44,798 bases of DNA, from the sequence record LT960609; one strand, written 5' to 3'. The notes beneath the pieces are model-generated. The model made no database searches, was not told the origin of the DNA, and saw only the letters and a program-made list of their open reading frames with translations. The stretch comes from Escherichia phage SECphi18. Positions within the stretch are counted from its first letter, which is position 1, and each line of letters starts with the position of its first letter. Below are positions 1 through 40,825 of the stretch, piece by piece. The position numbers and the translations under genes were made by a program.

Positions 1-55
1 GGTGAATAATAGATTGGTTGCAGGATGGGTGTCAACAACTAATTTAAAAAAAAAA
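1..55. repeat. Terminal duplication, copy 1 (identical to 44744-44798)
   Basis: First 55 nt (ggtgaataatagattggttgcagg...aaaaaaaaaa) recur exactly at the window end. Confidence 0.8.
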
Positions 56-551: not shown

Positions 552-2816
552 ATGAGCTTAATTAAATTCGCTGTAACAAGACCCGCTAAAAAAGGCGAAA
601 AAGCCAGGGCGGAAAACTTCCAGATGACCACCGATGAATTTTTCGAATTTATCAAAGATGCGAAAGAAATCTCCTCGGTGCATATCAACAAGACGGAAGA
701 TAAAGCCGAGTATGCGCGCCGCAAGCGTAAGGCCGACGGCATCGTGGCTTATACCAGTGACGGATTGCGTCGTAAGACCAGTGCGGTGGACCGCTCGATC
801 CTGTTCTTTGATATCGACCGTACCGACACCCGCACCCTACGCCGCTGCCGTAAGGCGTTCATTGACGCGGGTCTGGAGCACGTCTTCCACACCACTACCG
901 GCGACCGCCACCCGCTGAAAGGCGGCACGCGTTGCGCCCGTTTCCTGGTGTTGACCGACAAGCCTGTACCGGCGGAAGACCTGGGCCGCGTCCAGTATGC
1001 ACTATTACACCAACTGGGTCTGTCAGATGTGGACTTCGACGATTGCACGAAAGACACAAACCGCCTTATGTACCTGCCACATCAGCAGTCTGTCGTTAAG
1101 TGTCACTACGGAAAACGTGCCCGCGTCCGTCGTCTGCTTCGCCTGGCTGATACGCTGGGAGTGGAGAAAGAGGAAGTGCGCCGCGAACTAACCCAGGGCG
1201 ATGACGGCGTGGCGGACGGAATTCTGGATTGGTGCTTCCAGGCAGGATTCGAACCGCTGTCGTCTGGTCGTGGTTATGAAGTGCCATGCCCGAACGAACA
1301 TCTGCATAGTGGCGAAGGGTCCACCGCAATCATGGTTAAGGATGGCGAGATCCGTTTCAAGTGTATGCACACCGGCAACGAGTGTTGCTCGGAACTGAAC
1401 AGACACCAGCATCTGGCGCTACGTCTTATCGGGATACCTGACCACCTGAACGTCGAACCACACAACATGTCACGTAAGCAAATCGCCGCCATCCTTCCAG
1501 GACTGGACGACGAGGAAGTGGAATCCTGCTATGAACATATCGTTGATGCAGTTGGCGACGGCGAAGAATACGGCGTGTGCACCGATGCCGACCTGGACAA
1601 CGAGCCGGTTGCGCTGTTCAGTAAGCACGACCCGATCATCGAGGGGTTGATTAACTTTAAATCGACCTGGTACATGGCGGGTGAGTCGAATATCGGTAAG
1701 TCTTTCTACGTGCTGGGGCAGATGGGTGCGGTTGCCGCGGGTATTCCGTTTGGCGGTGCGAAGGTCGTCCAGTCCCATTGCTTCTATTTCGATGCGGAAG
1801 GCGGCGAAGCCTCCAACCAGCGTAAGGAAGCATTGCAGATTAAATACGAGCACGACCTGGACAAGCTGCACATTATAGACCTGCAGTCACGCGGCTGGGA
1901 TATCACCAGCAAATCCGGCTTGCGCGAAGTTATCAGCTTTATCAACCGCACCGCTAACGGCGAACCGGTGGGCCTGGTGGCGTTCGACTCACTCAACCAG
2001 ACGGTTGCGTTGCGGTCCGCCGATGCTAAACCGTTCGACGAGAACAACGCCAGCGATATGGGTGAAGTGGTCAAAGCGCTGAAGGCCATCGCGGAAAATA
2101 CAGGTGGCAGTGCGGGCGTCATCCACCACCCGGCTAAAGGTGCAAACGGCAGCAGAACGCCACGCGGGTCCGGCGCGCTTCATGGTGCTGTCGATTCCGC
2201 GTTCTTCCTGGAACAACCGGACGACAACCAGCCCGGACAATTGAACCTGTATCACGAAAAGGCGCGTAACGGCATCAAGCAAGCGCCGCGCGGATTCGTC
2301 CTGCTCAAGTGCAAAGTTAAGGTGGATCTCCGCAAGTCCGAAGCGTTCGAAGCCCACCAGTCCACCAGCACCGGGCCAGACTTCGGCGATGTGGTTGCCG
2401 GTTGGGACGTCAAGCCGATCGCATCCACGCCTCGCGACGAGACTCTTTACCTCGTACCGGTCGCCCTGGCACCGTTCGCCATCGAACAGGCGAAGGCGGC
2501 GGGCAAGGCCGCAGTTAAGGAAGAGAACACCGCCGGACCGCGCAACGAAAAAGAGAAAGTGCTTTATGCGGCACTGGAAAAACTGATGGAAGATAACCCG
2601 GACCATACTGGATTCAGTAAATCGGCAATTGTCCGCCAGGCCGGACTCGCGAAAGGTGGCACATCGACGAAGGCAATCGACGATATGGTCGAGCGCGGCG
2701 TGCTTGGTTTTTATACAGATCCGCACACCGGGGCAATCTATGGGTCGTCGAATATCGTCATCAAAACGAATATACCCATCACGCTTTCGGCGACCGACGA
2801 CGACTTAAAAGATTAA
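552..2816 (+). CDS. DNA primase-helicase (RecA/DnaB-like ATPase with N-terminal primase-like domain)
   Basis: 754 aa; Walker A-like GESNIGKS in a RecA-like core; acidic N-terminal domain with FFDIDRTD. Confidence 0.6.
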   Translation: MSLIKFAVTRPAKKGEKARAENFQMTTDEFFEFIKDAKEISSVHINKTEDKAEYARRKRKADGIVAYTSDGLRRKTSAVDRSILFFDIDRTDTRTLRRCRKAFIDAGLEHVFHTTTGDRHPLKGGTRCARFLVLTDKPVPAEDLGRVQYALLHQLGLSDVDFDDCTKDTNRLMYLPHQQSVVKCHYGKRARVRRLLRLADTLGVEKEEVRRELTQGDDGVADGILDWCFQAGFEPLSSGRGYEVPCPNEHLHSGEGSTAIMVKDGEIRFKCMHTGNECCSELNRHQHLALRLIGIPDHLNVEPHNMSRKQIAAILPGLDDEEVESCYEHIVDAVGDGEEYGVCTDADLDNEPVALFSKHDPIIEGLINFKSTWYMAGESNIGKSFYVLGQMGAVAAGIPFGGAKVVQSHCFYFDAEGGEASNQRKEALQIKYEHDLDKLHIIDLQSRGWDITSKSGLREVISFINRTANGEPVGLVAFDSLNQTVALRSADAKPFDENNASDMGEVVKALKAIAENTGGSAGVIHHPAKGANGSRTPRGSGALHGAVDSAFFLEQPDDNQPGQLNLYHEKARNGIKQAPRGFVLLKCKVKVDLRKSEAFEAHQSTSTGPDFGDVVAGWDVKPIASTPRDETLYLVPVALAPFAIEQAKAAGKAAVKEENTAGPRNEKEKVLYAALEKLMEDNPDHTGFSKSAIVRQAGLAKGGTSTKAIDDMVERGVLGFYTDPHTGAIYGSSNIVIKTNIPITLSATDDDLKD

Positions 2817-2891
2817 ATTCTGCGCGCATTGGTTGCCGATATGGGAATTCCCATATCGCTAAAAGATTAAATTTTGCGTGCATTGGTTGCC
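2805..2891. repeat. Two copies of a ~33-nt unit (ttaaaagattaaattNtgcgNgcattggttgcc) spaced 54 nt apart
   Basis: Copy 1 overlaps the primase-helicase stop codon; copy 2 starts 54 nt downstream; each ends in an ATTGGTTGCC motif. Confidence 0.6.
2837..2858. promoter_or_regulatory. 22-bp perfect palindrome (candidate protein-binding site)
   Basis: cgatatgggaattcccatatcg is its own reverse complement; sits between the two repeat copies. Confidence 0.5.
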
Positions 2892-2976
2892 ATTTTGGGT
2901 GTTTTTATCCGGTCGTATTGGTTGCCGTGTCGTGTAAATATAGTGAATAGTTATGCAATAAAACTGCATAAACTAA

Positions 2977-3078
2977 GCGGGACAAAAAGCGGGACAAACA
3001 TGAGGCGGGACAAAGCGGGACAGCACCCCTGTCCCGCCCCGGATGACGCGGCCTGGCGAGGAGCGGGACAGCGGGACA
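2977..3078. repeat. Iteron cluster A: six direct GCGGGACA copies plus one inverted copy
   Basis: GCGGGACA at about 2977, 2989, 3005, 3015, 3063, 3071; inverted TGTCCCGC at about 3030; non-coding. Confidence 0.7.
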
Positions 3079-3138
3079 GCACCCCAGTCTTTCAGACTAG
3101 ACGGGGTCAGTGGCCCCCCCCCGTCTGAGACTGAATAA
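3064..3138 (+). other. Conserved ~75-nt structured element, copy A (paralog at 19504-19578)
   Basis: cgggacagcgggacagcaccccagtctttcagactagacgggg...ccccgtctgagactgaataa; hairpins agtct/agact and agacgggg/ccccgtct. Confidence 0.55.
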
Positions 3139-3294
3139 AATCCGGGAGATTGCAAAATACACGGCAGCATGATGCGGATTGCGGTCGTTGATGAACTAGG
3201 CAACCAATGCGGGGTGTATTATGCTGAGTGAAAAATGCGGTTTGCAGTTACAGCAGATAGCGATCGACTTTTTCATGCGCGTGATTAATATTGG

Positions 3295-3323
3295 TTGCAC
3301 CCACCCTGGCACCCTGCTATATT
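3295..3323 (+). promoter_or_regulatory. Sigma70-like promoter overlapping two ATTGGTTGCA motif copies
   Basis: -35 TTGCAC (inside motif copy), 17-nt spacer, -10 TATATT (start of second copy); about 30 nt upstream of the 3352 ATG. Confidence 0.5.
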
Positions 3324-3351
3324 GGTTGCACACCAACATGAGGACTGAACA

Positions 3352-3642
3352 ATGAAAAAATTAATCTGGAATTACGCAATGGCCCTGGCGAAGCTGGTCG
3401 AAGTGAAACAAACAAACGGCAGCGCACCAGAGGCGCGCCTGGTCGCTCCGGCCTGGCATGCGATCATGAACGCGACCGCGGGCCTGAAAGACCCCGAACC
3501 GCTGCGCATGGCTATCCGGGTCTTCGCGATGGCGTTTGCCCGTGAGCGCCTGGCCTATCGCTTCGGTATCGGTGAGACGGCAGCGACAAACGTCGCCCGG
3601 ATTAAAGCCCAGCGCGAACTATTTGCCCAGCTTGCGAAATAA
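3352..3642 (+). CDS. Hypothetical early protein
   Basis: 96 aa ORF; RBS tgaggac upstream of ATG. Confidence 0.5.
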   Translation: MKKLIWNYAMALAKLVEVKQTNGSAPEARLVAPAWHAIMNATAGLKDPEPLRMAIRVFAMAFARERLAYRFGIGETAATNVARIKAQRELFAQLAK

Positions 3643-7763: not shown

Positions 7764-7789
7764 AGCCCGCCGATTTGGTGGGCTTTTTT
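7764..7789 (+). terminator. Intrinsic terminator
   Basis: agcccgcc-gattt-ggtgggct (one G-U pair) followed by T6. Confidence 0.5.
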
Positions 7790-7803
7790 GTGCCTGTTAT
7801 AAT
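7775..7803 (+). promoter_or_regulatory. Sigma70-like promoter with extended -10, upstream of terminase genes
   Basis: -35 TTGGTG, 17-nt spacer, TGtTATAAT. Confidence 0.45.
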
Positions 7804-7873
7804 CCACCTTAGATGGCAGGGCCGTCTCCTATGTTGCCGATGGTCGGCGCATATGAACAAAAGGGCATATATC

Positions 7874-8425
7874 ATGGCAGAAATCAAAGTTAAGGGCCGA
7901 CGCGCCAAACTGGACGGACGAGTAGCAGTAACCCCGCGCCGTAAACCAGGCGAGCAAACTGAGCATACCAATCTCGGACCTGAAATCGAGTACGGAAAGC
8001 GCCGTAAAGGCGGCAAATGTGGACGCCCTACTGACTACCGATCCGTTTACTGCGACCAGCTTCGCCGCTATTTTGCCGACGCCGACGCCTGGCAGGTCAA
8101 CTACTCCGATAAAGGCGCTGCGCAAGTAATCCCCCGCAACAAAATGCCAACCTTCGGTCGATTTGCCGCGGAAATCGGTGTGGGCGTAGCTTGCCTGTAT
8201 CGCTGGGCGCGCGCACATGAGGAGTTCGCCGAGGCAATGGCTGACGCTATGGAATTGCAGAAAACCTTCCTGATGGAAGCTGGCGGCGTGACCATCGCGG
8301 CGGGCTTCGCCACGTTCCTGCTTAAAGCCAACCACGGCGTCCGCGACGATACCCCACTGGATGACGACGAAGATGATAACGGCGACGTCGTTGTCGAACC
8401 TACCGGCAAAGGCCAGGGTGAGTAA
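7874..8425 (+). CDS. Terminase small subunit
   Basis: 183 aa from internal ATG with RBS aaaggg; HTH-like FAAEIGVGVACLYRWARAHEEF; directly upstream of and overlapping the large subunit. Confidence 0.55.
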   Translation: MAEIKVKGRRAKLDGRVAVTPRRKPGEQTEHTNLGPEIEYGKRRKGGKCGRPTDYRSVYCDQLRRYFADADAWQVNYSDKGAAQVIPRNKMPTFGRFAAEIGVGVACLYRWARAHEEFAEAMADAMELQKTFLMEAGGVTIAAGFATFLLKANHGVRDDTPLDDDEDDNGDVVVEPTGKGQGE

Positions 8426-9810
8426 TGCGTAACTATGCGGCAGAACACCGCGCACTGGAACGCGCGATCGCAAAGCGCAACCTACCGCCACGCCCGACAC
8501 GCGTTGCGCAGGCGGTGCGTCTTTACCAGCCTGATTGCCTACCGCACCAGGTCGAACTACTGCGCGACACAAAGACTAAAATACTCGGCCTGTGTTCCGG
8601 CTTCGGTGGTGGAAAGTCGTGGGTCGCTGCGCGTAAGGTAATCCAGCTTCTCACCCTGAACCCTGGTCATGATGGAATTGTGACGGAACCGACTATTCCG
8701 CTCCTGGTTAAAATTATGTATCCGGAATTGGAAAAGGCGTTTGACGAGGCTGGCTTCCGGTGGAAGTTCAATAAGCAGGACAAGATCTATAATGTGCTGG
8801 TGAAAGGAAAATGGACTCGCGTTATCTGTGAATCAATGGAGAACTATACCCGCCTGATTGGGGTTAACGCCGCGTGGATTGTTGCCGACGAGTTCGATAC
8901 CACGAAGCAAGACGTTGCGCTGGCGGCGTATCACAAATTGCTCGGTCGTCTGCGTGCAGGCTTTGTGCGCCAGTTCGTCATCGTGTCCACCCCGGAAGGC
9001 TACCGGGCGATGTACCAGATTTTCGAAGTGGAGAAGGATAGCCAGAAGCGTTTGATCCGGGCGAAGACCACCGACAACCACCATTTACCGGCAGACTTTA
9101 TCGACACGCTGCGCAGTCAGTACCCGGCTAACCTGATCGACGCGTACCTGAACGGCCTATTTGTTAACCTTACGTCGGGCGCGGTGTACAAGATGTTCAA
9201 CCGTGAGGAGAACGCCAGCACTGAAGAAGTGCAACCCGACGACACGCTGATTATCGGTATGGACTTTAACGTCACGAAGATGGCGGCGGTCGTGTACGTC
9301 AGACGGCAGCGCATCACCGAAAACAAGGAGTTCCGCGACGAGATCCACGCAGTGGATGAATTCGTGGACCTGTTTGACACCCCGGCTATGATTGAGGCGA
9401 TCGAGGAGCGCTACCCCGATCATTGTGCTGCCGGTCGGGTCGTCGTTTACCCGGATAGCAGCGGCAAGTCCCGCAAGACTGTCAACGCATCGTCGTCAGA
9501 TATCGCACAACTGGAAGACGCGGGCTTCGAGGTGGAGTACGACAGCGTTAACCCACCTGTGAAAGACCGATTGATCGCGATGAATACGATGATGTGCAAC
9601 TCGAAGGGCGTGCGCCAGTATTTTGTCAACCTGGATAAATGCCCTACACTAGCGAAATGTCTGGAACAGCAGGTTTACGACCTGAAGAAAGGCGAGCCGG
9701 ATAAAACCGCCGGGGTGGACCACATGAACGATGCCGCGGGCTATCCAATTGCGCACCTGTTCCCAGTGATTCGCCCAATCGCCGTTGTTCCAACTGTAGA
9801 CTTCTACTAA
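8425..9810 (+). CDS. Terminase large subunit
   Basis: 461 aa; Walker A GFGGGKS and Walker B-like WIVADE; ATG overlaps upstream stop. Confidence 0.85.
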   Translation: MRNYAAEHRALERAIAKRNLPPRPTRVAQAVRLYQPDCLPHQVELLRDTKTKILGLCSGFGGGKSWVAARKVIQLLTLNPGHDGIVTEPTIPLLVKIMYPELEKAFDEAGFRWKFNKQDKIYNVLVKGKWTRVICESMENYTRLIGVNAAWIVADEFDTTKQDVALAAYHKLLGRLRAGFVRQFVIVSTPEGYRAMYQIFEVEKDSQKRLIRAKTTDNHHLPADFIDTLRSQYPANLIDAYLNGLFVNLTSGAVYKMFNREENASTEEVQPDDTLIIGMDFNVTKMAAVVYVRRQRITENKEFRDEIHAVDEFVDLFDTPAMIEAIEERYPDHCAAGRVVVYPDSSGKSRKTVNASSSDIAQLEDAGFEVEYDSVNPPVKDRLIAMNTMMCNSKGVRQYFVNLDKCPTLAKCLEQQVYDLKKGEPDKTAGVDHMNDAAGYPIAHLFPVIRPIAVVPTVDFY

Positions 9811-12862: not shown

Positions 12863-12876
12863 TGGCCCCCTTTTGT
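12852..12876. terminator. Bidirectional intrinsic terminator
   Basis: gggggcc-gtga-ggccccc followed by TTTT; lies between convergent genes. Confidence 0.6.
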
Positions 12877-13640
12877 TAGCGCGGAATACCGCAAATCTCG
12901 TTTAGTGTTTTCACGTCCAGCGCCACCGCCGTGGACTTAGGCTTGTCCGGGTAAGGAATGAACTGTTCCACTTCAGGCCACGCCTTGATCAGCTTCTTAT
13001 CGGTATTGTGCATATCCAGAACGCCGGTAACGGTTAGTTTGAACGCATCATACTTCGCACGCAACTCGCGGCGGGCCTGGTCGTTACGGTCAAGGCGCTT
13101 GCAGAAGTCGTGGTCTGACGGGTAGTCCGCGCGATCGCGAGGAAGATATATCGGCAACGCTTTCCCGTCCTCGTCCACTTCGCACACTGACGCGAGCATA
13201 ACTGTCTCGAACCCCGGAACGATATCGCCGAGATCAGGCGCGAGCTTATTCATATATTTCTCTTCCCAGTATCCGCGATGTATGCGATGTTGGCGACCGT
13301 CGCCGCTCAATGACAAGGTGCGAACATTGCCGCCTGCGTTGATTTCAAAGGTGGCGTTGTAAACGCTGCCGATACCTTTCGGGCGGTCGGTGTTGTAGCT
13401 ATACGTCGCCTTGTTGGAGTAGACGCTGACGCCGTACATCTGCGACTGGGCATCGCGGATTGCCTTGATATGCTCGCGGAGCGCTGCAAACGTGCGAATG
13501 CCTTCCGGCATACAGTCCAGCGTAATGGCGTACGCAAGGTCGCGAGAGTCCATCATGATGGATTTGGCTTCGGTCGCGATTTCGTGGCCGCGCAGGATGT
13601 TAGCCAGAATCTGGTTTTTAATGTCTTTCGTCAGTCTCAT
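12876..13640 (-). CDS. Reverse-strand moron, hypothetical protein (254 aa)
   Basis: Internal ATG (MRLTKDIK...) with RBS gagga; own promoter; no family recognised by eye; the longer ORF-track N-terminus overlaps the scaffold gene. Confidence 0.6.
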   Translation of the reverse strand: MRLTKDIKNQILANILRGHEIATEAKSIMMDSRDLAYAITLDCMPEGIRTFAALREHIKAIRDAQSQMYGVSVYSNKATYSYNTDRPKGIGSVYNATFEINAGGNVRTLSLSGDGRQHRIHRGYWEEKYMNKLAPDLGDIVPGFETVMLASVCEVDEDGKALPIYLPRDRADYPSDHDFCKRLDRNDQARRELRAKYDAFKLTVTGVLDMHNTDKKLIKAWPEVEQFIPYPDKPKSTAVALDVKTLNEICGIPR

Positions 13641-13662: not shown

Positions 13663-13698
13663 TGCAACCAATATATGCAACCAATACGAGGATTGCAA
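13663..13698 (-). promoter_or_regulatory. Sigma70-like promoter with two tandem operator-motif copies
   Basis: Minus strand: -35 TTGCAA, 17 nt, -10 TATATT; ATTGGTTGCA copies 13 nt apart cover the spacer and start site. Confidence 0.5.
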
Positions 13699-19257: not shown

Positions 19258-19261
19258 TGAA

Positions 19262-19518
19262 GCGGGACAAAAGCGGGACGTCCCGTTTTGTCCCGCCCTG
19301 TAAAACCGCATATCTAATCTCTTTCATTGCATAAACTCAAAGCGGGACAGGCGGGACGTCCCGTTTTGTCCCACCCCGAAATGTGCATACCTATTCGAAT
19401 TTCGTGCATAAAACAAACGGGACAAAAAGCGGGACAGCATAGGGGCGGGACAAAGCGGGACAGCACCCCGTCCCCACCAGTGCTGCCGCGGGTTTTAGCC
19501 GATCGGGACAGCGGGACA
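19262..19518. repeat. Iteron cluster B: about nine GCGGGACA-type copies with GGGACGTCCC palindromes
   Basis: Units of about 80 nt: tgcataaa, then GCGGGACA, then GCGGGACgtcccg; non-coding block inside the tail module. Confidence 0.7.
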
Positions 19519-19578
19519 GCACCCCAGTCTTTCAGACTAGACGGGGGTCAACGGCCCCCCTCGTCTGAGACTGAATAA
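19504..19578 (+). other. Conserved ~75-nt structured element, copy B (paralog at 3064-3138)
   Basis: Matches copy A except for a few changes in the second hairpin that keep pairing through a G-U wobble. Confidence 0.55.
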
Positions 19579-19640
19579 GGATTGTTTTAAAATCGCTGAT
19601 ACAATGTCAATCGGCAACTGCATAAAAAGGGGACTGCATA

Positions 19641-22317: not shown

Positions 22318-22917
22318 ATGTCACAAGGTACAATCACACTAACGAAAGGAAGTAAGACCGTCACGGGCGCGGGAACGGCGTTCCTTAGCGAGATCGGGAA
22401 GGTACTCGTATTCGCCCGCATCGACGGCAACGACTACACCGGCAAAATTGCGGCATTCAACTCGAACACGGTCATTACTCTGAAAGATAACTGGGCCGGT
22501 CCGACGAAATCCGGTGCGGCATATGAGCTAATCGAAGCACACGACCCGCGATCAAACGAATGGCCCTATTACTGGCACATGCAATTGCAAGGCGGCGGAG
22601 ACGTGCAGTTGTCTTTCCGGTCCGAGGAATTGCAATTTGGTAACGGTTATGGTCAGAACATCGCAGACGGCCCGAACGCCGAGACGAAACAGTTCCCCGT
22701 GCAATTCATAGGGCTGACTACTGATAAGTGGTGCAACCCCAAACTGGTTTACAACTTCCTTCGCGGGCACTTCGTCAAGCCGTTTGTCGTTACCGCGCCG
22801 GATGGCGAAACAGGTTTATTCGTGGTCGAGCGTTCGAGCTTGTCGTACACGGACAACGGGCACTACACGGCAACGGTATCCGCCACCCTGAAAACTGCTA
22901 TTGGATTCGTAAGATGA
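22318..22917 (+). CDS. Minor/distal tail protein (gpM position)
   Basis: 199 aa from internal ATG; first gene after the tape measure. Confidence 0.5.
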   Translation: MSQGTITLTKGSKTVTGAGTAFLSEIGKVLVFARIDGNDYTGKIAAFNSNTVITLKDNWAGPTKSGAAYELIEAHDPRSNEWPYYWHMQLQGGGDVQLSFRSEELQFGNGYGQNIADGPNAETKQFPVQFIGLTTDKWCNPKLVYNFLRGHFVKPFVVTAPDGETGLFVVERSSLSYTDNGHYTATVSATLKTAIGFVR

Positions 22918-31588: not shown

Positions 31589-31611
31589 GGGGCCATGCGG
31601 CCCCTTTTTTT
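31589..31611. terminator. Bidirectional intrinsic terminator
   Basis: ggggcc-atgc-ggcccc followed by T7; lies between convergent genes. Confidence 0.6.
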
Positions 31612-32185
31612 AGTTTGAGTTTTCCCAGTCCATTTTTCGCCGCACCAGGGGGCTTTCGTAGTATTCCTTTCCGTCCACTTCCACTAAGGGCCAGTCATTA
31701 ACAATGACGTATGGTTCCGCGATATCCTCGATCACGCCATGCGCGCTTTGCGGCCCTAACGACACACCAACCAGGATAACACCGGCAACGCGACGGGCAA
31801 GATACTCGCGAGCGCAACGCGCCTCTACCAGTCCGCGACGGATGCCGCTGGTGGCCTTAACCTCGTAGGTCCATACGGCATCAATCACATGCTCGCGGAA
31901 GTCTGGACCGGACTTAACCTTGCGTTTACCGACCATGATGATATCGCCGCGGTCAATGGTATTGGCGCTAAACAGGCCGGTACGCATCAGTAAGCCTTGC
32001 GGGATACAACTACGCCCGCCCGCCTGGCCCTCAAGGTACATGCCAGCAAACATCTCGCCCAGCACACCGACAAGACGGCTTTGCTTGCACGCGTCAGACT
32101 TTAAGCGCCACTGGTCAAACTCGATGCTTGCTATCATAGCCGCCAGGTGGAATTGTTTACCGGATATTTCATATTCGCCGTACAT
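31610..32185 (-). CDS. Hypothetical protein, possible PD-(D/E)xK nuclease fold
   Basis: 191 aa; GPDF...VWTYEVK resembles a PD...ExK motif; weak. Confidence 0.35.
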   Translation of the reverse strand: MYGEYEISGKQFHLAAMIASIEFDQWRLKSDACKQSRLVGVLGEMFAGMYLEGQAGGRSCIPQGLLMRTGLFSANTIDRGDIIMVGKRKVKSGPDFREHVIDAVWTYEVKATSGIRRGLVEARCAREYLARRVAGVILVGVSLGPQSAHGVIEDIAEPYVIVNDWPLVEVDGKEYYESPLVRRKMDWENSN

Positions 32186-32227
32186 CGTGTGGCCCTCATT
32201 GATGCGGGCCGAAGCCCGCGATTAGAA

Positions 32228-32749
32228 TTATTTCAGTGCGCCAGTCACCAGTGTTTTTTCCATGTTGCGGAAGTCTTCCGGCGTCATGAGGATTTTGGAC
32301 CCGTCTTCGCCAGTTAGAACGACCATAGGCTGGACGTCCTGGTCTACGACGCCGAAATCGGCGGCTTTGACAGTCTTGCCCGCCGATGCCGAAGGATGCC
32401 ACGCCCCTGCGGTGGCGATGGGCCAACCTTTAAGGCTATCGTATTGCGCTGCCGTTGTATCGATCTGGATCTCGTCATGTACGGTCATGTACGACTCGCC
32501 CAGCAGTGCGGCATATGCTACCAGGTCAACGATGTTATCGTCCTGGTGCTTACGGTGCTGGCGTACCAGCTTCAGGCAGATCAGGAAGGTCCAGGCTTCT
32601 TGCTCGGTAAGGTCGCGACCGGTAAGCGCGTTAAACACGGCAGCGATCTGCTTAGCGCTGCGCTCCTCTTTCGCGTTGTCATAGCCGTTTTCTTTCCCGC
32701 GCTGATCCATAGTGGTGGCGGCGTTTTTGCAGTATTCGTATGCTTTCAC
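32228..32749 (-). CDS. Hypothetical protein
   Basis: 173 aa; GTG start with RBS aaaggg. Confidence 0.45.
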   Translation of the reverse strand: MKAYEYCKNAATTMDQRGKENGYDNAKEERSAKQIAAVFNALTGRDLTEQEAWTFLICLKLVRQHRKHQDDNIVDLVAYAALLGESYMTVHDEIQIDTTAAQYDSLKGWPIATAGAWHPSASAGKTVKAADFGVVDQDVQPMVVLTGEDGSKILMTPEDFRNMEKTLVTGALK

Positions 32750-32793
32750 AGTATTACCCTTTTAGTGAGGGGCAGTATTGCCCCGACACGTTT

Positions 32794-32823
32794 ACTATAG
32801 TGCAACCAACCTATTGGTTGCAA
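32794..32823 (-). promoter_or_regulatory. Sigma70-like promoter containing a palindromic operator
   Basis: TGCAACCAA-cctA-TTGGTTGCA inverted repeat (9-bp arms); minus strand -35 TTGCAA, 18 nt, -10 TATAGT. Confidence 0.5.
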
Positions 32824-33281
32824 GTAAATTTTGCAACGTTTATTGCGTAAATTTTCGGGACCAGATCGCTGCACGCCCGACGAATTGCCGCGATGTTCTT
32901 CTCGCAATCTTCAATGATGACCAGTTCGGACACGTCCGCATAGCAGACCATTTTGAACACGGCGCACGCTTTAAACTCTGGCGGCGGGGTGTCGTCCAGC
33001 ATGTGGCGCATGAACAACCGGCCGTTCGGGAATACTTCCAGTTGCTCGGCGGTCGTGTCCCAACATTCGCGCTGCCGGTTTGTCAGATACGCGATCTCGA
33101 AGCCTTGCTCTTTGTACATGCGCAACAGCGGCAGCATATCCATGTTAAGGTCTTCGCGTACGTGCGCTTTGTGCCACTTCGCCCAAAATGTTGATTTGGT
33201 TTTTATACCCGGAACCAGGTCGGCGCGTGCATCACTCGAACCATTAATAACGCCATCAAGATCACAAATCAGTAGTTTCAT
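32811..33281 (-). CDS. HAD-superfamily hydrolase/phosphatase-like protein
   Basis: 156 aa; N-terminal LLICDLDGVI matches HAD motif I (DxDG). Confidence 0.5.
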   Translation of the reverse strand: MKLLICDLDGVINGSSDARADLVPGIKTKSTFWAKWHKAHVREDLNMDMLPLLRMYKEQGFEIAYLTNRQRECWDTTAEQLEVFPNGRLFMRHMLDDTPPPEFKACAVFKMVCYADVSELVIIEDCEKNIAAIRRACSDLVPKIYAINVAKFTCNQ

Positions 33282-33502
33282 TTTAAGCTCTCAATAAGGG
33301 TGTGTCGGGCGCTGCGCGCGGTGAAGGAGTTACACACGAAATGGCAACGCTTGGTTATGACAAGCCAGCCGGTAAGATCCAGGCCCAGGATATATTCAGG
33401 CCGTGACACGCGCTTCACGTGATCGCGGCGTGGGTCGATGTTATAGTCTCTTTGCATTTGGTATACTACCGCGGGGTCGCGGTCAACGATTAAGATATTC
33501 AT
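33278..33502 (-). CDS. Hypothetical protein
   Basis: 74 aa from internal ATG with RBS gagag; overlaps neighbours by 4 nt. Confidence 0.4.
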   Translation of the reverse strand: MNILIVDRDPAVVYQMQRDYNIDPRRDHVKRVSRPEYILGLDLTGWLVITKRCHFVCNSFTARSARHTLIESLK

Positions 33503-33968
33503 GTAACTCACTCTCGCTCATTATTTCAATTTGTGCGCTGCCGATGGGCGGCGCTTCGTCAAAGATTATCAATTGCTGGCACTTGTTATTGCTAGGCCCG
33601 ACTTCGCCGGTGACGGCGTGTATAAATCTAATCCGCCAGTCCAGAAGAATTATCAGGTTTGCAGTCTTCCTGGCCAGCTTCGCCCCCTTCGTCGACGTGT
33701 CCTGATTCAGTAGCATGACCGTCCGGCGTCCGTGCGCTGCGCACTCTACCCACGGCAGCGGATCGGAATACGGCGGATTGCACCACTTCCACCCTTTCAA
33801 CTCGGACCAGTCCACATCAAGCGCGCTGTGTTCCGCCGTGAAGTAACGCGGTAGCAGATGATTGGCGTCGCTTGCCGCCATATCGTAACGGAATCGGTAT
33901 TTCCGACGAAGCGGTTTAAATAAAGCTGGCGGCGTGCGCCAGCTATCTTTTTGCTCATTCTCCGTCAT
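33483..33968 (-). CDS. DNA N6-adenine methyltransferase (phage Dam-like)
   Basis: 161 aa; catalytic NPPY motif (WCNPPYSD). Confidence 0.6.
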   Translation of the reverse strand: MTENEQKDSWRTPPALFKPLRRKYRFRYDMAASDANHLLPRYFTAEHSALDVDWSELKGWKWCNPPYSDPLPWVECAAHGRRTVMLLNQDTSTKGAKLARKTANLIILLDWRIRFIHAVTGEVGPSNNKCQQLIIFDEAPPIGSAQIEIMSESELHEYLNR

Positions 33969-34413
33969 AGTCTGGATCTATCGCATACAGGGCGGTTTTC
34001 TTGCCACTGGATAGCACGCGTTGGACTCGGGATAGCTCCGCCCTACTGAGCGGTCGGCTATCGGAATAGTAGCTGCCGTTTGCACGCCACGCTATACGCA
34101 CCAGTCCTTTCCGCGGGATCGAAGACTGGCTGCCCTTCGGACGGACGTACTCCTCGGCCAGTTTGCAATGCTCGCGCAGACCTTCGGCAGTGATGCGGTT
34201 TAGCGCGACGGTGGTTGTGTACCCGGTGCGCTGCATAATACCCATCAACTCATACAGCAGTTCGAAGCGCTCCTCTAACTCCTTGCGCATCTTTTCCTCG
34301 CCTTCATAGCTCGCCAGGTAGGTATCCGCCAGCGCGTTCGCCCGTTCGACCTGTTCGCGGGCTTCGAGGCATTGCGCGGCCCAGTAATTTTTCTCTTCTT
34401 GTAAAATTTTCAT
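33955..34413 (-). CDS. Hypothetical protein
   Basis: 152 aa; charged helical N-terminus. Confidence 0.45.
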   Translation of the reverse strand: MKILQEEKNYWAAQCLEAREQVERANALADTYLASYEGEEKMRKELEERFELLYELMGIMQRTGYTTTVALNRITAEGLREHCKLAEEYVRPKGSQSSIPRKGLVRIAWRANGSYYSDSRPLSRAELSRVQRVLSSGKKTALYAIDPDYDGE

Positions 34414-34433
34414 CGTGTTGTCTCCAGGTATTA

Positions 34434-34460
34434 AAAAAGGCGTCCAAACCGGACACCCTT
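34434..34460 (-). terminator. Terminator-like hairpin on minus strand
   Basis: Minus strand: ggtgtcc-ggttt-ggacgcc followed by T6. Confidence 0.4.
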
Positions 34461-34467
34461 AAGATAA

Positions 34468-34494
34468 TGCAACCAATATAATTATGCAACCAAT
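34468..34494. promoter_or_regulatory. Tandem operator-motif pair
   Basis: Two TGCAACCAAT copies 17 nt apart in the intergenic region. Confidence 0.5.
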
Positions 34495-34818
34495 TTACGA
34501 ATAAAAATTTGGGTCGCGCGCTACGTCTACCAGATACAGATTGCTGATTCGGTTGCCGTAGTGGCCTGGTGTGCGCTTGCGGCACACAACGGCGTAGCCT
34601 GGAGGAATTGTATTGCCAGTCTCAATAATCCACGCCACGCGCGCGCCAGATAGCGTCTTGCCGTTGCACTCGATGCGCGTGCCACCATCGGCAGTGTTAA
34701 GGTTGCCGATCTTGCAGCCTGTGGACTTCAGGCGAATGACGCCGGTCTTGCTGTCGTAGGAAAAAAGCTGATTGGTCATTGCCACTGAAAAGTCGATGGC
34801 TTCGAATGTAGTATTCAT
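34495..34818 (-). CDS. Hypothetical protein, HNH-like
   Basis: 107 aa; weak resemblance to homing-endonuclease DNA-binding modules. Confidence 0.3.
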   Translation of the reverse strand: MNTTFEAIDFSVAMTNQLFSYDSKTGVIRLKSTGCKIGNLNTADGGTRIECNGKTLSGARVAWIIETGNTIPPGYAVVCRKRTPGHYGNRISNLYLVDVARDPNFYS

Positions 34819-35510
34819 TTTAAATTTTCCTCATTGACCGCTATCGCGAAGCCGCGCGGGGTGAGCGACCTGATTAATTTGGTGCGGGCAGATTTGCCTC
34901 CGAGGCGACTATACTGCTTCGAGTACCCTTTTTCAACGAAAACAGGTTTCTTCTCTGGCATACGGAAGCCGTTGCCGGTCCATAAGCAGGTCAGCTTCGG
35001 ATATGAATCGCGGGCGTTGATGTACTCTGGGAAGAGCGGGTGTACGTCATCCACCGGTAGATAGCCGCCATACTCCCACGGGTCGAACGAGTGGTCCGGC
35101 TTGCGCCATTGGGTCGATAGCACGCTGCGCGGATTCTCAATCATATATGGCACTTCGAAGAAGTCCCCCAGGTAAGCGGCGATCTTCGCGGTGCGCACCG
35201 CCTTAAGCTGGAAGGCAGGGTCGCGGGCGCGTTTGCGCGGGAAAGCTGGCGCACCGCTAACCGCCAGATCCGTACACGGCGGGAATGCGTAAATGATATC
35301 CGGCGTGCCGAAATCACCATTCATCGCGCGGTCCACGAAGTCCAGATCGATAAACTCATTACGATATCGGATACCGCGCCCATAGATCCGGTAATCAAGG
35401 TAAGACCCGTGATCGGCTTCGGAGTAGTTGAAGCAATAACACTTATGCCCCATCTCGGCAGCACGCTCAATCATCAAGCCGCTGCCGTCAAACAATGACC
35501 AGATTATCAT
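34815..35510 (-). CDS. DNA C5-cytosine methyltransferase-like protein
   Basis: 231 aa; motif I-like LFDGSG, motif IV-like FPPC, motif VI-like ENP; short for a full methyltransferase. Confidence 0.45.
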   Translation of the reverse strand: MIIWSLFDGSGLMIERAAEMGHKCYCFNYSEADHGSYLDYRIYGRGIRYRNEFIDLDFVDRAMNGDFGTPDIIYAFPPCTDLAVSGAPAFPRKRARDPAFQLKAVRTAKIAAYLGDFFEVPYMIENPRSVLSTQWRKPDHSFDPWEYGGYLPVDDVHPLFPEYINARDSYPKLTCLWTGNGFRMPEKKPVFVEKGYSKQYSRLGGKSARTKLIRSLTPRGFAIAVNEENLK

Positions 35511-36931
35511 TTGCGAGCCTTTTTAGCTTTCATGTATTCCATCAAGTCGTCCTGTATATCTCGCTTACTGTCGCGACGCTCGGCGACCAGTTCGTCCAGT
35601 GTTCCGCGCGCCTGGATAATGTAGACGAATACCGGTCGAGGGTGTCCGGCCTGCATCTGGCGAACCGGCCCGATACGTTCAACGATCTGCGAAAAGTGCT
35701 CAAAGTTCCAGGTATCGGAGAAGATTGCCAGGTGATGACCGCCGTCCTGCAAGTTAAGGCCGTGGCCCGCCGATGCCGGGTGTGCAAACATGATGGGGAT
35801 CTCGCCTCTGTTCCACGCTTCCATATCCTTATTGCCCTGCTTACCCTTACCCAACGCGACGCCGTGCGGAAATTTCTTCTTAAGACGTGCCAGGTCATGC
35901 TTATACTGATACGCAACGAGCAACGGCGCGCCGTTCAACTCCTCCACGATACTTTCCAGCGCGTCCAGTTTGGCGTCGTGAATCTTCACCCATTCGTCGG
36001 TGCGCTCGCCGTCTTCGTCGACTTTATACACGGCCCCCGAAGCAAGCTGAAGGCACTTAATAGTCTTCGACGCAGCGTTCGCCGCCTCCACCGTTCCGCT
36101 TTCCAGTTCGGCAAATAGCTCGCTTTCAAACTGGTCGTAAATCTTGCGGGCTTTCTTCGGCAGGTCCACAACAACCGGCGTATAGATTGGCTTGTCGCAC
36201 CCGAAGTATTCTGCCGCGTCAACGGTGAGGGATACATCTGACAGACGTTGTTGTATCTCTTTCTCGGAGTTCTTTAGCGGAGCGTGCTGCATAGTGAAGC
36301 TGCCAGGCTTAACAGGCTTGCTAATAAACCAGCGGTCGGTAAATGCCTTATAGCTACTGCCGAGGCGTTCGCCACCGTCGACAAACCACGTCTGACCCCA
36401 TAAGTCTTTTAGCCCGTTTGGCGCTGGTGTGCCGGTAAGGTTAATCCAGCGCTTGACGTGTTTATGTGCAATCGCTGCCAGTGCGCGGGCGCGCTTGCTC
36501 CCCTGCTTGCTACGATAGCCTTTCAGCTTAGTCGATTCATCGGCAACAACGACCGTAAAGGGCCACGCATCGCCGTAATAGTCTACCAGCCACTCAACCA
36601 CATCGTAGTTAACACAAACCACGTTAGCGTCGCTCTCAAGCGCGGCAATACGGTCCTTCTCCGGTCCGGTGCCGTCTACGACCAGTAGGGATGAGAACCG
36701 CCATTTCTCCTGTTCCGGGGGCCATGTACCCGACGCAACACGCAGCGGGGCCAGCACCAGTACGCGGTCCTCATGATGTGACAGGACGCCAGTCTGGAAC
36801 ATTTTATTCAGCGCCCACATTGTCGCGCCGGTTTTCCCGGATCCCATTGTCGCCCAGATATTACATCGCTTATGCTTGAGGATGAACGCGGTAATCAACT
36901 TCTGATATTCGCGGCGTCGGAATCGTGCCAT
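35507..36931 (-). CDS. SNF2/DEAD-like superfamily 2 helicase
   Basis: 474 aa from internal ATG; Walker A MGSGKTG, DEST box, helicase C-terminal motifs. Confidence 0.65.
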   Translation of the reverse strand: MARFRRREYQKLITAFILKHKRCNIWATMGSGKTGATMWALNKMFQTGVLSHHEDRVLVLAPLRVASGTWPPEQEKWRFSSLLVVDGTGPEKDRIAALESDANVVCVNYDVVEWLVDYYGDAWPFTVVVADESTKLKGYRSKQGSKRARALAAIAHKHVKRWINLTGTPAPNGLKDLWGQTWFVDGGERLGSSYKAFTDRWFISKPVKPGSFTMQHAPLKNSEKEIQQRLSDVSLTVDAAEYFGCDKPIYTPVVVDLPKKARKIYDQFESELFAELESGTVEAANAASKTIKCLQLASGAVYKVDEDGERTDEWVKIHDAKLDALESIVEELNGAPLLVAYQYKHDLARLKKKFPHGVALGKGKQGNKDMEAWNRGEIPIMFAHPASAGHGLNLQDGGHHLAIFSDTWNFEHFSQIVERIGPVRQMQAGHPRPVFVYIIQARGTLDELVAERRDSKRDIQDDLMEYMKAKKARK

Positions 36932-36935
36932 CTCT

Positions 36936-37154
36936 TTATTCCGCCTTTTTCCAGACTTCAGTTTCACTATCCCAGTTCCTCTTTGTGGCGTCGTAGTTGG
37001 TGGCGTGTCCGACGTGGACACCGGTAGCCCGGAAGCTCTTAAATTTTTGCCAGCACACCGTCAACGGCAGCGGATCATTCATGCCTGCGATAAACCACAC
37101 GCGATCGCCCGGTTTACATTCGCCCAGCTTGGTGAGTCGGTAATGTTCTTTCAT
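36936..37154 (-). CDS. Hypothetical protein
   Basis: 72 aa from internal ATG with RBS gggaga. Confidence 0.4.
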   Translation of the reverse strand: MKEHYRLTKLGECKPGDRVWFIAGMNDPLPLTVCWQKFKSFRATGVHVGHATNYDATKRNWDSETEVWKKAE

Positions 37155-37170
37155 CGGCATGTCTCCCAAA

Positions 37171-37195
37171 AATGGCGGGACAAGCCCGCCGTATT
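37171..37195 (-). terminator. Intrinsic terminator on minus strand
   Basis: Minus strand: ggcgggc-ttgt-cccgcc followed by attttt. Confidence 0.45.
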
Positions 37196-37197
37196 AA

Positions 37198-37371
37198 TTA
37201 TTTTTGCTCTGCGCGGTAGCGGCGCTGCCGTTCGCGCTCTTTTTTATTGCGGCACGATTTGCACTCTGCCCGATACCCGTCCGGGCTTCGCGCAGTCTTA
37301 CCGGTGTATTTATGGAACTGGGATAGCGGTTTAACGCAGCCGCAATTACTGCAACGTTTTTCTTCAATCAT
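37198..37371 (-). CDS. Free-standing zinc-ribbon protein
   Basis: 57 aa from internal ATG; CSNCG...CKSC pattern, same as the N-terminal repeats of the HNH endonuclease. Confidence 0.4.
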   Translation of the reverse strand: MIEEKRCSNCGCVKPLSQFHKYTGKTARSPDGYRAECKSCRNKKERERQRRYRAEQK

Positions 37372-37402
37372 CTCTAAAATCCTCGATATGGCTAACCGGC
37401 AC

Positions 37403-40815: not shown

Positions 40816-40825
40816 TTTTCGTTGT

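What the first reader, a model, noticed from the sequence alone, without database searches (positions are those of the whole stretch)
2817..3351. Candidate replication origin downstream of the primase-helicase gene
This 535-bp non-coding region holds a ~33-nt unit present twice 54 nt apart, a 22-bp perfect palindrome, an AT-rich stretch, six direct GCGGGACA iterons plus one inverted copy, and the conserved hairpin element. Iterons plus an AT-rich segment next to the initiator gene is the classic origin layout.
Basis: partly seen in the sequence, partly recalled or inferred. Interest (0 to 1): 0.7.

Follow-up and report, generated by a model that had tools for sequence, protein, structure and literature searches.

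The report
Likely phage replication origin with iterons
The non-coding stretch after this coliphage's primase-helicase gene is very probably the site where that enzyme binds and starts DNA replication, because relatives keep the same layout while the repeat word changes together with the enzyme's DNA-binding tail; no experiment has shown this yet.

Summary
The window is a whole Dhillonvirus (HK578/SO-1-like coliphage) genome. The conserved core is smaller, 2936-3170: an AT-rich box, four direct GCGGGACA, one inverted copy, a GC-rich spacer, two more direct copies, a 49-nt hairpin and ACACGGCAGCA. The 54-nt unit with the 22-bp palindrome is a strain-level indel. ATTGGTTGC is a separate, genome-wide promoter-associated motif.

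A second, homologous iteron-and-hairpin module lies at 19258-19640, between the tail chaperone and tape-measure genes.

The same layout follows the primase-helicase gene in 23 loci whose enzymes are 37-99% identical to this one. The repeat word differs by lineage (12 words). It tracks the enzyme's C-terminal winged-helix domain, not the invariant HTH protein encoded upstream. Two blind predictions of the word from that domain were correct. One pair of relatives has swapped exactly this domain plus the repeats and hairpin.

Best reading: an iteron origin, or loading site, recognised by an AEP-primase / RepA-type-helicase / winged-helix initiator. It works like P4 alpha, pRN1 ORF904 and IncQ oriV. 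Origin activity itself is untested. It is a new member of a known kind.

The parts
552..2816 (+). Primase-helicase gene (754 aa), the proposed initiator. Domains: N-terminal AEP primase-polymerase fold, RepA/DnaB-like AAA_25 helicase (aa 357-531), C-terminal winged helix, acidic tail DDDLKD.
   Evidence: Pfam AAA_25, E 2.3e-19. PHROG 3228 'replicative helicase-primase'. N-terminal AF2 model has pLDDT 84 and its best PDB match is the S-2L PrimPol AEP domain 6zp9, E 1.5e-5.
2547..2762 (+). Coding region for the C-terminal winged-helix domain (aa ~666-737), the proposed iteron reader.
   Evidence: The AF2 model shows three helices followed by two strands, core pLDDT 83-90. All top Foldseek hits are winged-helix proteins (MarR family, histone H1, ORC WH), but the best E-value is only 0.009. 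This is the most divergent domain of the protein (20-32% identity against 63-66% for the helicase). Its sequence type tracks the iteron word.
2806..2899 (+). Tandem 54-nt duplication (units start at 2806 and 2860). It carries ATTGGTTGCC twice and the 22-bp palindrome at 2837-2858. It is variable and not part of the core.
   Evidence: D2, I6. Present in 6 of 16 aligned dhillonviruses and relatives.
2917..2926 (+). ATTGGTTGCC site. Further direct copies lie at 2828 and 2882, and an inverted copy at 3199-3208. The copy at 2917 and the inverted copy bracket the core module.
   Evidence: (I4). The -GCC variant occurs only in this region. All other copies read -GCA or -GCT and sit at promoter-like sites.
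2936..2976 (+). AT-rich segment (78% A+T), a candidate unwinding element. It contains the box GAATAGTTATGCA (2945-2957) and the inverted pair TTATGCA / TGCATAA.
   Evidence: top 0.025% of 40-nt windows. The box is conserved in lineages whose iterons differ.
2977..3022 (+). Four direct iterons GCGGGACA, with start-to-start spacing of 12, 16 and 10 nt.
   Evidence: The words are nearly invariant in the 16 aligned relatives (rare G-to-A changes at the first base) while the spacers between them vary.
3030..3037 (-). One inverted iteron.
   Evidence: One or two inverted copies sit at the same place in the other lineages.
3038..3062 (.). GC-rich spacer.
3063..3078 (+). Two abutting direct iterons.
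3085..3133 (+). Imperfect 49-nt hairpin or palindrome: CAGTCTTTCAGACTAGACGGGG, a loop, then CCCCGTCTGAGACTG.
   Evidence: A stable hairpin sits at the same position in 10 lineages although its sequence differs (z -1.6 to -4.3). It has no U-tract and is not scored as a terminator.
3159..3169 (+). ACACGGCAGCA box, conserved after the hairpin in all lineages.
   Evidence: ACGGCAGCA occurs 7 times in the genome against 0.56 expected.
3290..3330 (+). Promoter-like site for the downstream operon: TTGCAC (3295-3300), a 17-nt spacer, TATATT (3318-3323). Two ATTGGTTGCA copies overlap it. It is adjacent to the core, not part of it.
   Evidence: Read. The consensus scan does not call it because the -35 matches only 3 of 6. 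The same arrangement occurs at 13664/13677 and 34469/34486.
19258..19640 (+). Second module ('region A' in the SO-1 GenBank record). Two 78-nt units each carry two direct and two inverted iteron cores (19262-19296 and 19342-19376). An inverted GAATAGGTATGCA box lies at 19384-19396. A full copy of the core runs from 19417 to 19573, including the hairpin at 19525-19573. An extended -10, TGATACAAT, lies at 19597-19605, before the tape-measure ATG at 19641.
   Evidence: (84% identity to 2940-3150). Every one of the 157 related GenBank records has at least two matching places, and 152 of 157 hold at least 80% of region A. Pantoea phage AH01 and Salmonella phage FSL SP-031 have only one cluster.

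Best explanation
The core at 2936-3170 is the recognition and loading site, that is the replication origin, for the phage's own multifunctional initiator encoded immediately upstream.

Proposed steps:
1. The C-terminal winged-helix domain of the primase-helicase reads the 8-bp iterons. Four are direct and about one helical turn apart, one is inverted, and two more lie beyond a GC-rich spacer.
2. The bound protomers assemble the RepA-type helicase ring next to the 78% A+T box, which melts.
3. The conserved hairpin and the flanking conserved boxes provide single-stranded or structured DNA where the AEP primase domain makes the first primers for the T7-like DNA polymerase and gp2.5-like SSB encoded on the other strand.
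4. The module at 19258-19640 is a duplication specific to Dhillonvirus. It is bound by the same protein and acts either as a second origin or as an auxiliary cis site.

What is shown: the anatomy, its conservation, the covariation between iteron word and winged-helix type, and the domain folds.

What is inferred: binding, melting, priming and the role of the second copy.
For: 1. Conserved layout. The order AT box, 3-4 direct iterons, 1-2 inverted, spacer, 2 direct, hairpin, ACGGCA(G/A)CA, promoter sits directly after the primase-helicase stop codon in lineages whose enzymes are only 37-70% identical to this one.

2. Lineage-specific repeat words:
- GCGGGACA: window, L020, L021, L096, L108
- GTGTGGCA: L106, L107
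- GTGTGCCA: L109
- GGTGCCA: L110
- GGGATAA / AGGGAT: L028, L102
- TCCGACA: L029
- CGGACAA: AH01, phiEap-2
- GGGGGAGA: SP-031, TS6
- GGGGATGA: L033
- ACTCGCAA: L097, VLCpiS11a
- TTCCGCACA: Tsm2

3. The word tracks the C-terminal domain. From the winged-helix sequence type I predicted GTGTGGCA for P0008 and GCGGGACA for P0013 before fetching their DNA. Both predictions were right.

4. Cassette swap. L029 and Pantoea phage AH01 are 94-99% identical in protein through the primase, helicase and linker, but only 47% in the winged helix. Their DNA is about 90% identical up to codon ~660. It drops to 38-73% across the winged helix, iterons and hairpin, and returns to 98% at the downstream promoter.

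5. The other linked DNA binder is excluded. The HTH of the small upstream protein is invariant across lineages with four different iteron words.

6. Selection acts on the words. The iteron words are nearly invariant while the spacers between them vary.

7. The AT-rich box is at the extreme of genome composition.

8. Domain architecture. AEP primase fold, AAA_25 helicase and winged helix match the logic of known self-loading initiators. P4 alpha binds its origin repeats through a winged helix. The pRN1 origin stem-loop lies directly 3' of the orf904 gene (PMC4234260).
Against: - There is no experimental evidence for initiation here in any member of this phage group. I found none in the literature searched.
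- Cumulative GC skew has its minimum at the divergent promoter region at the window ends and its maximum near 31.6 kb. It simply follows transcription and gives no support to 3.0 kb.
- The winged-helix assignment rests on a medium-confidence model and Foldseek E-values above 0.009.
- L028 and L029 have 70% identical winged helices but different iterons, so the covariation is not a simple code.
- Some relatives have no such array within 4 kb: Jersey, Kagunavirus and the L024-type contigs.
- The second copy sits in the middle of the tail operon, an odd place for an origin. Both copies are followed by promoters, so a transcriptional role is not excluded.
Confidence: 0.6

Rival explanations
1. It is a transcription-control region between the early replication genes and the next operon. 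On this reading the repeats are operator or enhancer sites for a regulator, the hairpin attenuates or terminates read-through, and the duplicated copy does the same job in front of the tape-measure and tail genes.
For: - Both modules lie at operon junctions, in the direction of transcription.
- Each is followed by a promoter-like site: TTGCAC-17-TATATT at 3295-3323, and the extended -10 TGATACAAT at 19597-19605, which is invariant in 15 relatives.
- ATTGGTTGC sites, which behave like promoter or operator elements genome-wide, are interleaved with region B.
Against: - The repeat word covaries with the primase-helicase C-terminal domain, not with the linked HTH regulator, whose HTH is invariant.
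- No intrinsic-terminator signature was found: no U-tract and no hit in the scan.
- No Rfam family matched.
- Relatives with a single module have none in the tail operon.
Confidence: 0.12
2. The arrays do bind the primase-helicase, but for a purpose other than initiation. Possibilities are titration or handcuffing to limit initiation elsewhere, pairing of the two sites, or fork or primosome reloading. The true origin would then lie elsewhere, for example in the divergent early promoter region at the window ends.
For: - There are two arrays 16.5 kb apart.
- The GC-skew minimum is at the divergent region, not here.
- Iteron arrays in plasmids also serve copy control (general knowledge of iteron plasmids, not tested here).
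Against: - Relatives have a single array that comes with an AT-rich box and a hairpin, the full set expected of an origin.
- A lytic phage has little need for negative copy control.
- The skew follows gene orientation and so is uninformative.
Confidence: 0.1
3. It is a DNA-packaging recognition site (pac) for the terminase of this headful-packaging phage.
For: - Repeats flanking a central segment recall P1 and SPP1 pac sites (my own knowledge).
- At least six GenBank records of relatives begin at the position equivalent to window 3251, inside the finding.
- PhageTerm calls headful packaging for Opt-212 and BF9 (PMC9022532; PMC10059673).
Against: - The terminase genes are about 4.4 kb downstream, at 7775-9810.
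- HK578 and five SO-1-like genomes were deliberately started at the small terminase gene because no fixed end was found.
- The repeats covary with the primase-helicase, not with anything in the packaging module.
- The shared record start may be a copied convention.
Confidence: 0.05
4. It is a small non-coding RNA gene, or a repeated mobile element of the MITE type, present in two copies.
For: - Two copies share about 175 nt at 84% identity.
- The element contains a conserved hairpin.
Against: - No Rfam match was found.
- The RNA fold of the whole module is not exceptional: z = -1.2 and -2.5.
- No copies exist in 5,426 E. coli genomes or 72,556 plasmids.
- Its position after the primase-helicase gene is fixed across genera.
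- There are no terminal inverted repeats or target duplications.
Confidence: 0.04

Closest known systems
Satellite phage P4: ori and crr, recognised by the alpha protein
   Same: - One polypeptide combines primase, helicase and a C-terminal winged-helix origin-binding domain that reads short repeats at the origin (PMC4234260).
- From my own knowledge (Flensburg & Calendar 1987; Ziegelin et al. 1993): the P4 repeats are octamers and occur at two separate cis sites, ori and crr. The two GCGGGACA modules here resemble that.
   Different: - P4 alpha has a Toprim-type primase (PMC4234260) and an SF3 helicase (my own knowledge). This protein has an AEP fold and a RecA-type AAA_25 helicase.
- No sequence similarity to alpha was detected in any search.
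- The second site is absent from related genera, so it is not a general requirement.
- Whether it is needed in cis is unknown.
Sulfolobus plasmid pRN1: ORF904 and its origin stem-loop
   Same: - ORF904 is an AEP prim-pol, helicase and C-terminal winged-helix protein.
- The origin is a stem-loop immediately 3' of its own gene.
- The stem-loop is conserved in structure but not in sequence among relatives (PMC4234260). The hairpin at 3085-3133 behaves the same way across lineages.
   Different: - The pRN1 helicase is SF3, and pRN1 has no iterons.
- Here the hairpin is accompanied by an iteron array and an AT-rich box.
IncQ plasmid RSF1010 oriV
   Same: - From my own knowledge, oriV combines iterons, a GC-rich stretch, an AT-rich stretch and hairpin priming signals (ssiA/ssiB).
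- Its helicase RepA belongs to the same Pfam family, AAA_25. A family profile gives a weak PDB match to RepA 1g8y, E 0.066.
   Different: - RSF1010 uses three separate proteins: RepC reads the iterons, RepA is the helicase and RepB' is the primase (PMC4234260). Here all three functions appear fused.
- RSF1010 iterons are 20-mers (my own knowledge), not 7-9-mers.
'Region A' and 'region B' repeat_region features in the Sodalis phage SO-1 GenBank record (GQ502199 / NC_013600)
   Same: These are the same two loci. They are annotated as consisting of direct, inverted and palindromic repeats with mutual sequence similarity, followed by 'possible ...'.
   Different: I found no publication analysing the regions.

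Membership tests
Iteron-type replication origin | Several direct repeats of one short word, about a helical turn apart | tested here: met
   Six direct GCGGGACA copies with spacings of 12, 16, 10 and 8 nt, plus one inverted copy. The genome holds 16 copies against 2.35 expected.
Iteron-type replication origin | Adjacent AT-rich segment that can unwind | tested here: met
   2936-2976 is 78% A+T, in the top 0.025% of 40-nt windows of the genome. Unwinding itself was not tested.
Iteron-type replication origin | Linked initiator gene whose DNA-binding domain is specific for the repeats | tested here: inconclusive
   The gene is adjacent. The repeat word covaries with its C-terminal winged helix, two blind predictions were correct, and one cassette swap was found. 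Physical binding cannot be tested with these tools.
Iteron-type replication origin | DNA synthesis starts there, or the site supports autonomous replication | not testable with these tools
   No marker-frequency or replicon data were found for this phage group.
P4 alpha / ori-crr system | One protein with primase, helicase and a C-terminal winged-helix origin binder | tested here: met
   AEP fold (6zp9, E 1.5e-5), AAA_25 and a winged-helix-like model (significance weak).
P4 alpha / ori-crr system | Homology to alpha (Toprim primase, SF3 helicase) | tested here: not met
   Pfam, PHROG and PDB sequence searches give AAA_25 / RepA-type matches only. The primase fold is AEP.
P4 alpha / ori-crr system | The same octamer repeats at two separate cis sites, both required | tested here: inconclusive
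   Two sites are present here and in all 157 dhillonvirus records. AH01 and FSL SP-031 have only one. Whether both are required cannot be tested here.
pRN1 ORF904-type replicon | Origin stem-loop directly 3' of the replication gene, conserved in structure rather than sequence | tested here: met
   A stable hairpin lies downstream of the gene, just after the iteron array, in 10 lineages with different sequences.
pRN1 ORF904-type replicon | SF3 helicase domain | tested here: not met
   The helicase is AAA_25 (RecA/RepA type).
Intrinsic transcription terminator | GC-rich hairpin followed by a U-run | tested here: not met
   The scan finds no + strand site in 2600-3600. The hairpin is followed by GAATAAAATCC.
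Described RNA families (Rfam 15) | Match at or above the gathering score | tested here: not met
   No matches in the whole window. In the region, only chance-level hits with E of 3-4.
Packaging site (pac/cos) | Next to the terminase genes, or coinciding with mapped genome ends | tested here: inconclusive
   The terminase genes are 4.4 kb away. Published PhageTerm calls are headful for two relatives and 5' cos at another locus for a third. Several records start at window 3251 for unknown reasons.

The most novel reading that the evidence does not exclude
The winged helix, iterons and hairpin form an exchangeable 'origin-specificity cassette'. Related virulent siphophages swap it, as the L029 / AH01 pair suggests, so that co-infecting relatives or satellites cannot use each other's initiator. 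In Dhillonvirus the cassette's DNA half has been duplicated into the tail operon. That would give a two-site system in which one primase-helicase works at, or bridges, two arrays 16.5 kb apart. This would be a P4 ori/crr-like arrangement arising independently in a lytic phage.
Probability: 0.2. Interest if true: 0.6.

Novelty: new member of a known kind. Interest (0 to 1): 0.45.

Why it matters
Dhillonviruses and the Guernseyvirinae-like phages that share this module are widely isolated and proposed for therapy and biocontrol, yet I found no mapped origin for any of them.

A defined core of about 235 bp, together with a predicted reader domain, makes the origin directly testable by band-shift, by replicon cloning and by read depth during infection.

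The natural set of about a dozen matched pairs of reader domain and repeat word is ready material for studying how a winged helix changes specificity. It could also serve for building orthogonal phage-derived replicons.

The kind of system itself, an iteron origin read by a self-loading primase-helicase, is classical.

Tried and rejected
- Rfam: nothing in the whole window at gathering score, and nothing in the region at an E-value threshold.
- Promoter and terminator scans: no terminator in the region.
- RNA folding of the whole 186-nt modules: unremarkable, z = -1.2 and -2.5. I therefore dropped the idea of an ncRNA or a put-like antiterminator.
- GC and AT skew: both follow gene orientation only.
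- Copies of the module in E. coli genomes or plasmids, looked for as possible satellites hijacking the origin: no match.
- A second module in the distant relative L028, searched with an exact 15-mer: only the known site was found and the other hits were noise. Whole genomes of AH01 and SP-031 were more informative.
- Homolog search with the C-terminal fragment alone: 1 hit. The full-length search was needed.
- PDB sequence searches: nothing useful.
- Literature: no paper analyses these regions or maps an origin.
- DnaA-box and IHF readings of GAATAGTTATGCA: considered by eye and rejected, because the matches are poor and inconsistent between lineages.
- CRISPR-repeat mimicry and the small minus-strand ORF at 3196-3276: considered and dropped, since there is no similarity and no ribosome-binding site respectively.
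- Formal pair counting on the hairpin within Dhillonvirus: not run, because the stems are invariant there and only the loop varies.
Full report
WHAT THE WINDOW IS

The 44,798-base window is a complete, circularly assembled genome; its first and last 55 bases are identical. It belongs to a Dhillonvirus, the HK578 / SO-1-like coliphages. The region of the finding matches 156 GenBank phage records at up to 91% identity.

Genes run rightward from about 200 to 31,578 and leftward from 31,610 to 44,732. The leftward block encodes a T7-like replication set: family A DNA polymerase, gp2.5-like SSB, exonuclease and helicase. The rightward block opens with a 109-aa HTH protein (212-541) and a 754-aa primase-helicase (552-2816). 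The finding lies directly after that gene.

THE OBSERVATION

- The repeated unit lies at 2806-2845 and 2860-2899, 54 nt apart.
- The perfect 22-bp palindrome lies at 2837-2858.
- The stretch 2936-2976 is 78% A+T, in the top 0.025% of all 40-nt windows of the genome.
- There are six direct and one inverted GCGGGACA. The genome holds 16 copies against 2.35 expected.
- The hairpin lies at 3085-3133.
- Relatives differ by 1-2-nt indels throughout the stretch, so it is non-coding.

Three things were missed.
1. Seven of the nine other GCGGGACA copies, and the only other copy of the hairpin, form a second module at 19258-19640, between the tail assembly chaperone gene and the tape-measure gene. About 175 nt of it align with 2965-3138 at 84% identity. 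The GenBank record of Sodalis phage SO-1 annotates the two loci as repeat 'region A' and 'region B'.
2. The 54-nt unit with the palindrome is an insertion polymorphism, present in 6 of 16 aligned relatives.
3. ATTGGTTGC is a different motif system. It has 15 exact copies genome-wide, oriented with local transcription and often overlapping promoter-like hexamers.

THE CONSERVED CORE

Aligning 16 dhillonviruses and close relatives shows nearly invariant iteron words, variable spacers between them, an invariant hairpin stem with a variable loop, and a conserved ACACGGCAGCA box after the hairpin. The functional unit is therefore about 2936-3170, not the whole 535 bp.

DISTANT RELATIVES

I fetched the DNA downstream of primase-helicase genes that are 37-70% identical to this one, from IMG/VR contigs, GenBank phages and metagenome assemblies. 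The same architecture recurs directly after the stop codon:
- an AT-rich segment, usually with the box GAATAGTTATGCA;
- three or four direct repeats;
- one or two inverted repeats;
- a spacer;
- two direct repeats;
- a hairpin of about 55 nt;
- TGCATAA or TTATTCA;
- ACGGCA(G/A)CA;
- a promoter.

The repeat word is different in each lineage:

| Repeat word | Loci or phages |
|---|---|
| GCGGGACA | window, HK578, L021, L096, L108 |
| GTGTGGCA | L106, L107 |
| GTGTGCCA | L109 |
| GGTGCCA | L110 |
| GGGATAA / AGGGAT | L028, Hafnia TS33 |
| TCCGACA | L029 |
| CGGACAA | Pantoea AH01, Enterobacter phiEap-2 |
| GGGGGAGA | Salmonella FSL SP-031, TS6 |
| GGGGATGA | L033 |
| ACTCGCAA | L097, Klebsiella VLCpiS11a |
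| TTCCGCACA | Serratia Tsm2 |

A hairpin at the same position is stable as single-stranded DNA in all ten lineages tested, although its sequence differs (z -1.6 to -4.3). A fixed layout with a lineage-specific word is the signature of a protein-binding array that co-evolves with its reader.

WHO READS THE REPEATS

The primase-helicase has three parts.
- The N-terminal domain has an AEP primase-polymerase fold. The model has pLDDT 84 and its best PDB match is the S-2L PrimPol AEP domain, E 1.5e-5. D87, D89 and H120 are invariant.
- The central domain is a RepA/DnaB-type AAA_25 helicase.
- The C-terminal ~80 residues are predicted as three helices followed by two strands. Every top structural match is a winged-helix DNA binder, though none is statistically strong.

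The C-terminal domain is by far the most divergent part of the protein: 20-32% identity against 63-66% for the helicase. Three tests link it to the repeats.

1. Cassette swap. L029 and Pantoea phage AH01 are 94-99% identical through the primase, helicase and linker, but 47% in the winged helix. Their repeat words differ. At the DNA level, identity is about 90% up to codon ~660. It falls to 38-73% across the winged helix, repeats and hairpin, and returns to 98% at the downstream promoter. One cassette has been exchanged.

2. Shared signature. AH01 and phiEap-2 share the word CGGACAA and share a distinctive winged-helix signature (GGGN(K/S)RRR...), despite only 75-81% identity elsewhere.

3. Blind prediction. 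Within the clade closest to Dhillonvirus, I grouped proteins by winged-helix type and predicted the word before fetching the DNA. P0008 (same type as P0010) was predicted to have GTGTGGCA. P0013 (same type as P0012) was predicted to have GCGGGACA. Both were right. The two other types, P0009 and P0014, had two further words.

In contrast, the HTH of the small protein encoded upstream is invariant across these lineages. It therefore cannot be the iteron reader. It is a better candidate for the equally invariant ATTGGTTGC motif.

The covariation is not a clean code. L028 and L029 have 70% identical winged helices and different words.

THE SECOND MODULE

Whole-genome scans of AH01 and FSL SP-031 find a single cluster. 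The copy in the tail operon is therefore a duplication specific to Dhillonvirus.

Every one of the 157 related GenBank records has at least two matching places, and 152 of them hold at least 80% of region A. Its B-like third part is as conserved as region B, while its two upstream 78-nt units are more degenerate. The divergent member L021/L122 carries the same mix of ACGGGACA and GCGGGACA in both regions. That is consistent with one reader serving both sites.

Orthologous copies are more alike (88-95%) than the two copies within one genome (84%). The duplication is therefore old and both copies are maintained.

MECHANISM PROPOSED

The initiator binds the iterons through its winged helix. It assembles its helicase ring at the neighbouring AT-rich box. 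It then primes with its AEP domain on the unwound or hairpin DNA and hands over to the T7-like polymerase. The conserved acidic C-terminal tail may be a polymerase contact, as in T7 gp4; that point is analogy only.

Shown here: the anatomy, its conservation, the covariation and the domain folds. Inferred: binding, melting, priming and the role of region A.

The logic matches known systems.
- P4 alpha is a primase-helicase with a winged helix that binds origin repeats.
- pRN1 ORF904 is an AEP / helicase / winged-helix protein whose origin stem-loop lies just 3' of its own gene and is conserved in structure, not sequence.
- RSF1010 oriV has the same functions split over three proteins (all three from PMC4234260).
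- My recollection adds that P4 uses octamer repeats at two cis sites, ori and crr, and that RSF1010 oriV combines iterons, GC-rich and AT-rich stretches and hairpin priming signals.

Membership in the P4 or pRN1 protein families fails on the helicase type, and for P4 also on the primase type. So it works like them but is not a member.

RIVALS

- A transcription-control role is the most serious rival, because both modules sit at operon junctions and are followed by promoters. It does not explain why the word follows the primase-helicase tail rather than the regulator. There is also no terminator signature.
- A non-origin binding role, such as titration or pairing, cannot be excluded.
- A packaging site is unlikely. 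The terminase genes are 4.4 kb away, and two relatives are reported as headful packagers with no fixed end. However, several GenBank records begin at window 3251, which I could not explain.
- An RNA gene or a mobile element is unlikely.
- GC skew neither supports nor contradicts the origin, because it follows gene orientation.

VERDICT

It is a new member of a known kind: an iteron origin read by a self-loading primase-helicase. Two points go beyond the ordinary. The reader domain and its repeats appear to be an exchangeable cassette, and the module is duplicated in Dhillonvirus. Interest is moderate.

Noticed in passing
window 13, 2828, 2882, 2917, 3200(-), 3290, 3321, 3840(-), 13664(-), 13677(-), 29775(-), 32813, 34469(-), 34486(-), 37428(-), 44756: ATTGGTTGC has 15 exact copies, oriented with local transcription. 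Copies often come in pairs 12-31 nt apart and overlap promoter-like hexamers (TAtATTGGTTGCA). Guernseyvirinae-like relatives carry an analogous GTTGGCTG(C/T). The likely reader is the 109-aa HTH protein at 212-541, whose HTH is invariant across lineages.
   Followed up: partly
window 3250/3251: At least six GenBank dhillonvirus records from different laboratories (Zar3M, BMA1, Pandora71, PEC9, PTXU06, WFI) begin at the equivalent of CAGCAGATAGC and end just before it. This is either a copied convention or a real physical end inside the finding.
   Followed up: partly
window 34455-34464 (-): The 10-nt '5' cos' sequence ATCTTAAGGG, reported by PhageTerm for the relative EE09 (PMC10673088), is present here. 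It lies immediately downstream of a pair of ATTGGTTGC sites, far from the terminase genes. Other relatives are reported as headful packagers.
   Followed up: no
window 19597-19605: An extended -10 promoter-like sequence, TGATACAAT, is invariant in 15 relatives. It lies between the region A hairpin and the tape-measure start codon at 19641.
   Followed up: no
window 2146, 3161, 4560, 5617, 12138(-), 12540, 21300: ACGGCAGCA occurs 7 times against 0.56 expected. The copy at 3161 sits in a box conserved after the hairpin in all lineages, and the word is also frequent in the L024-type relatives.
   Followed up: no
window 1-55 and 44744-44798: The two ends of the window are identical over 55 nt. This is the overlap left by a circular assembly, so the genome is about 44,743 bp.
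   Followed up: yes
window 2796-2813 (last residues of the primase-helicase): An acidic C-terminal tail, D(D/E)DL(K/E)(D/N), is conserved in all lineages although the preceding winged helix diverges. It may be a contact for the T7-like DNA polymerase, by analogy with T7 gp4.
   Followed up: no
window ~12876-13625 (-): A leftward gene is embedded in the rightward structural block and has its own pair of ATTGGTTGC sites and a promoter-like sequence at 13664-13685.
   Followed up: no
window ~40900-41150 and ~22450-22750: Two local clusters of short words turned up in the repeat scan: ACGACGA (7 copies) and AATTGCA (5 copies). Both lie inside coding regions.
   Followed up: no
L024-L027, L030, L031, L092-L094 (Jersey, Kagunavirus and related contigs): Relatives with a homologous primase-helicase, including the C-terminal domain in the L024 type, have no iteron array within 4 kb. 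Instead, terminators or an oppositely oriented HTH gene follow the gene. Where their origin lies is open.
   Followed up: partly
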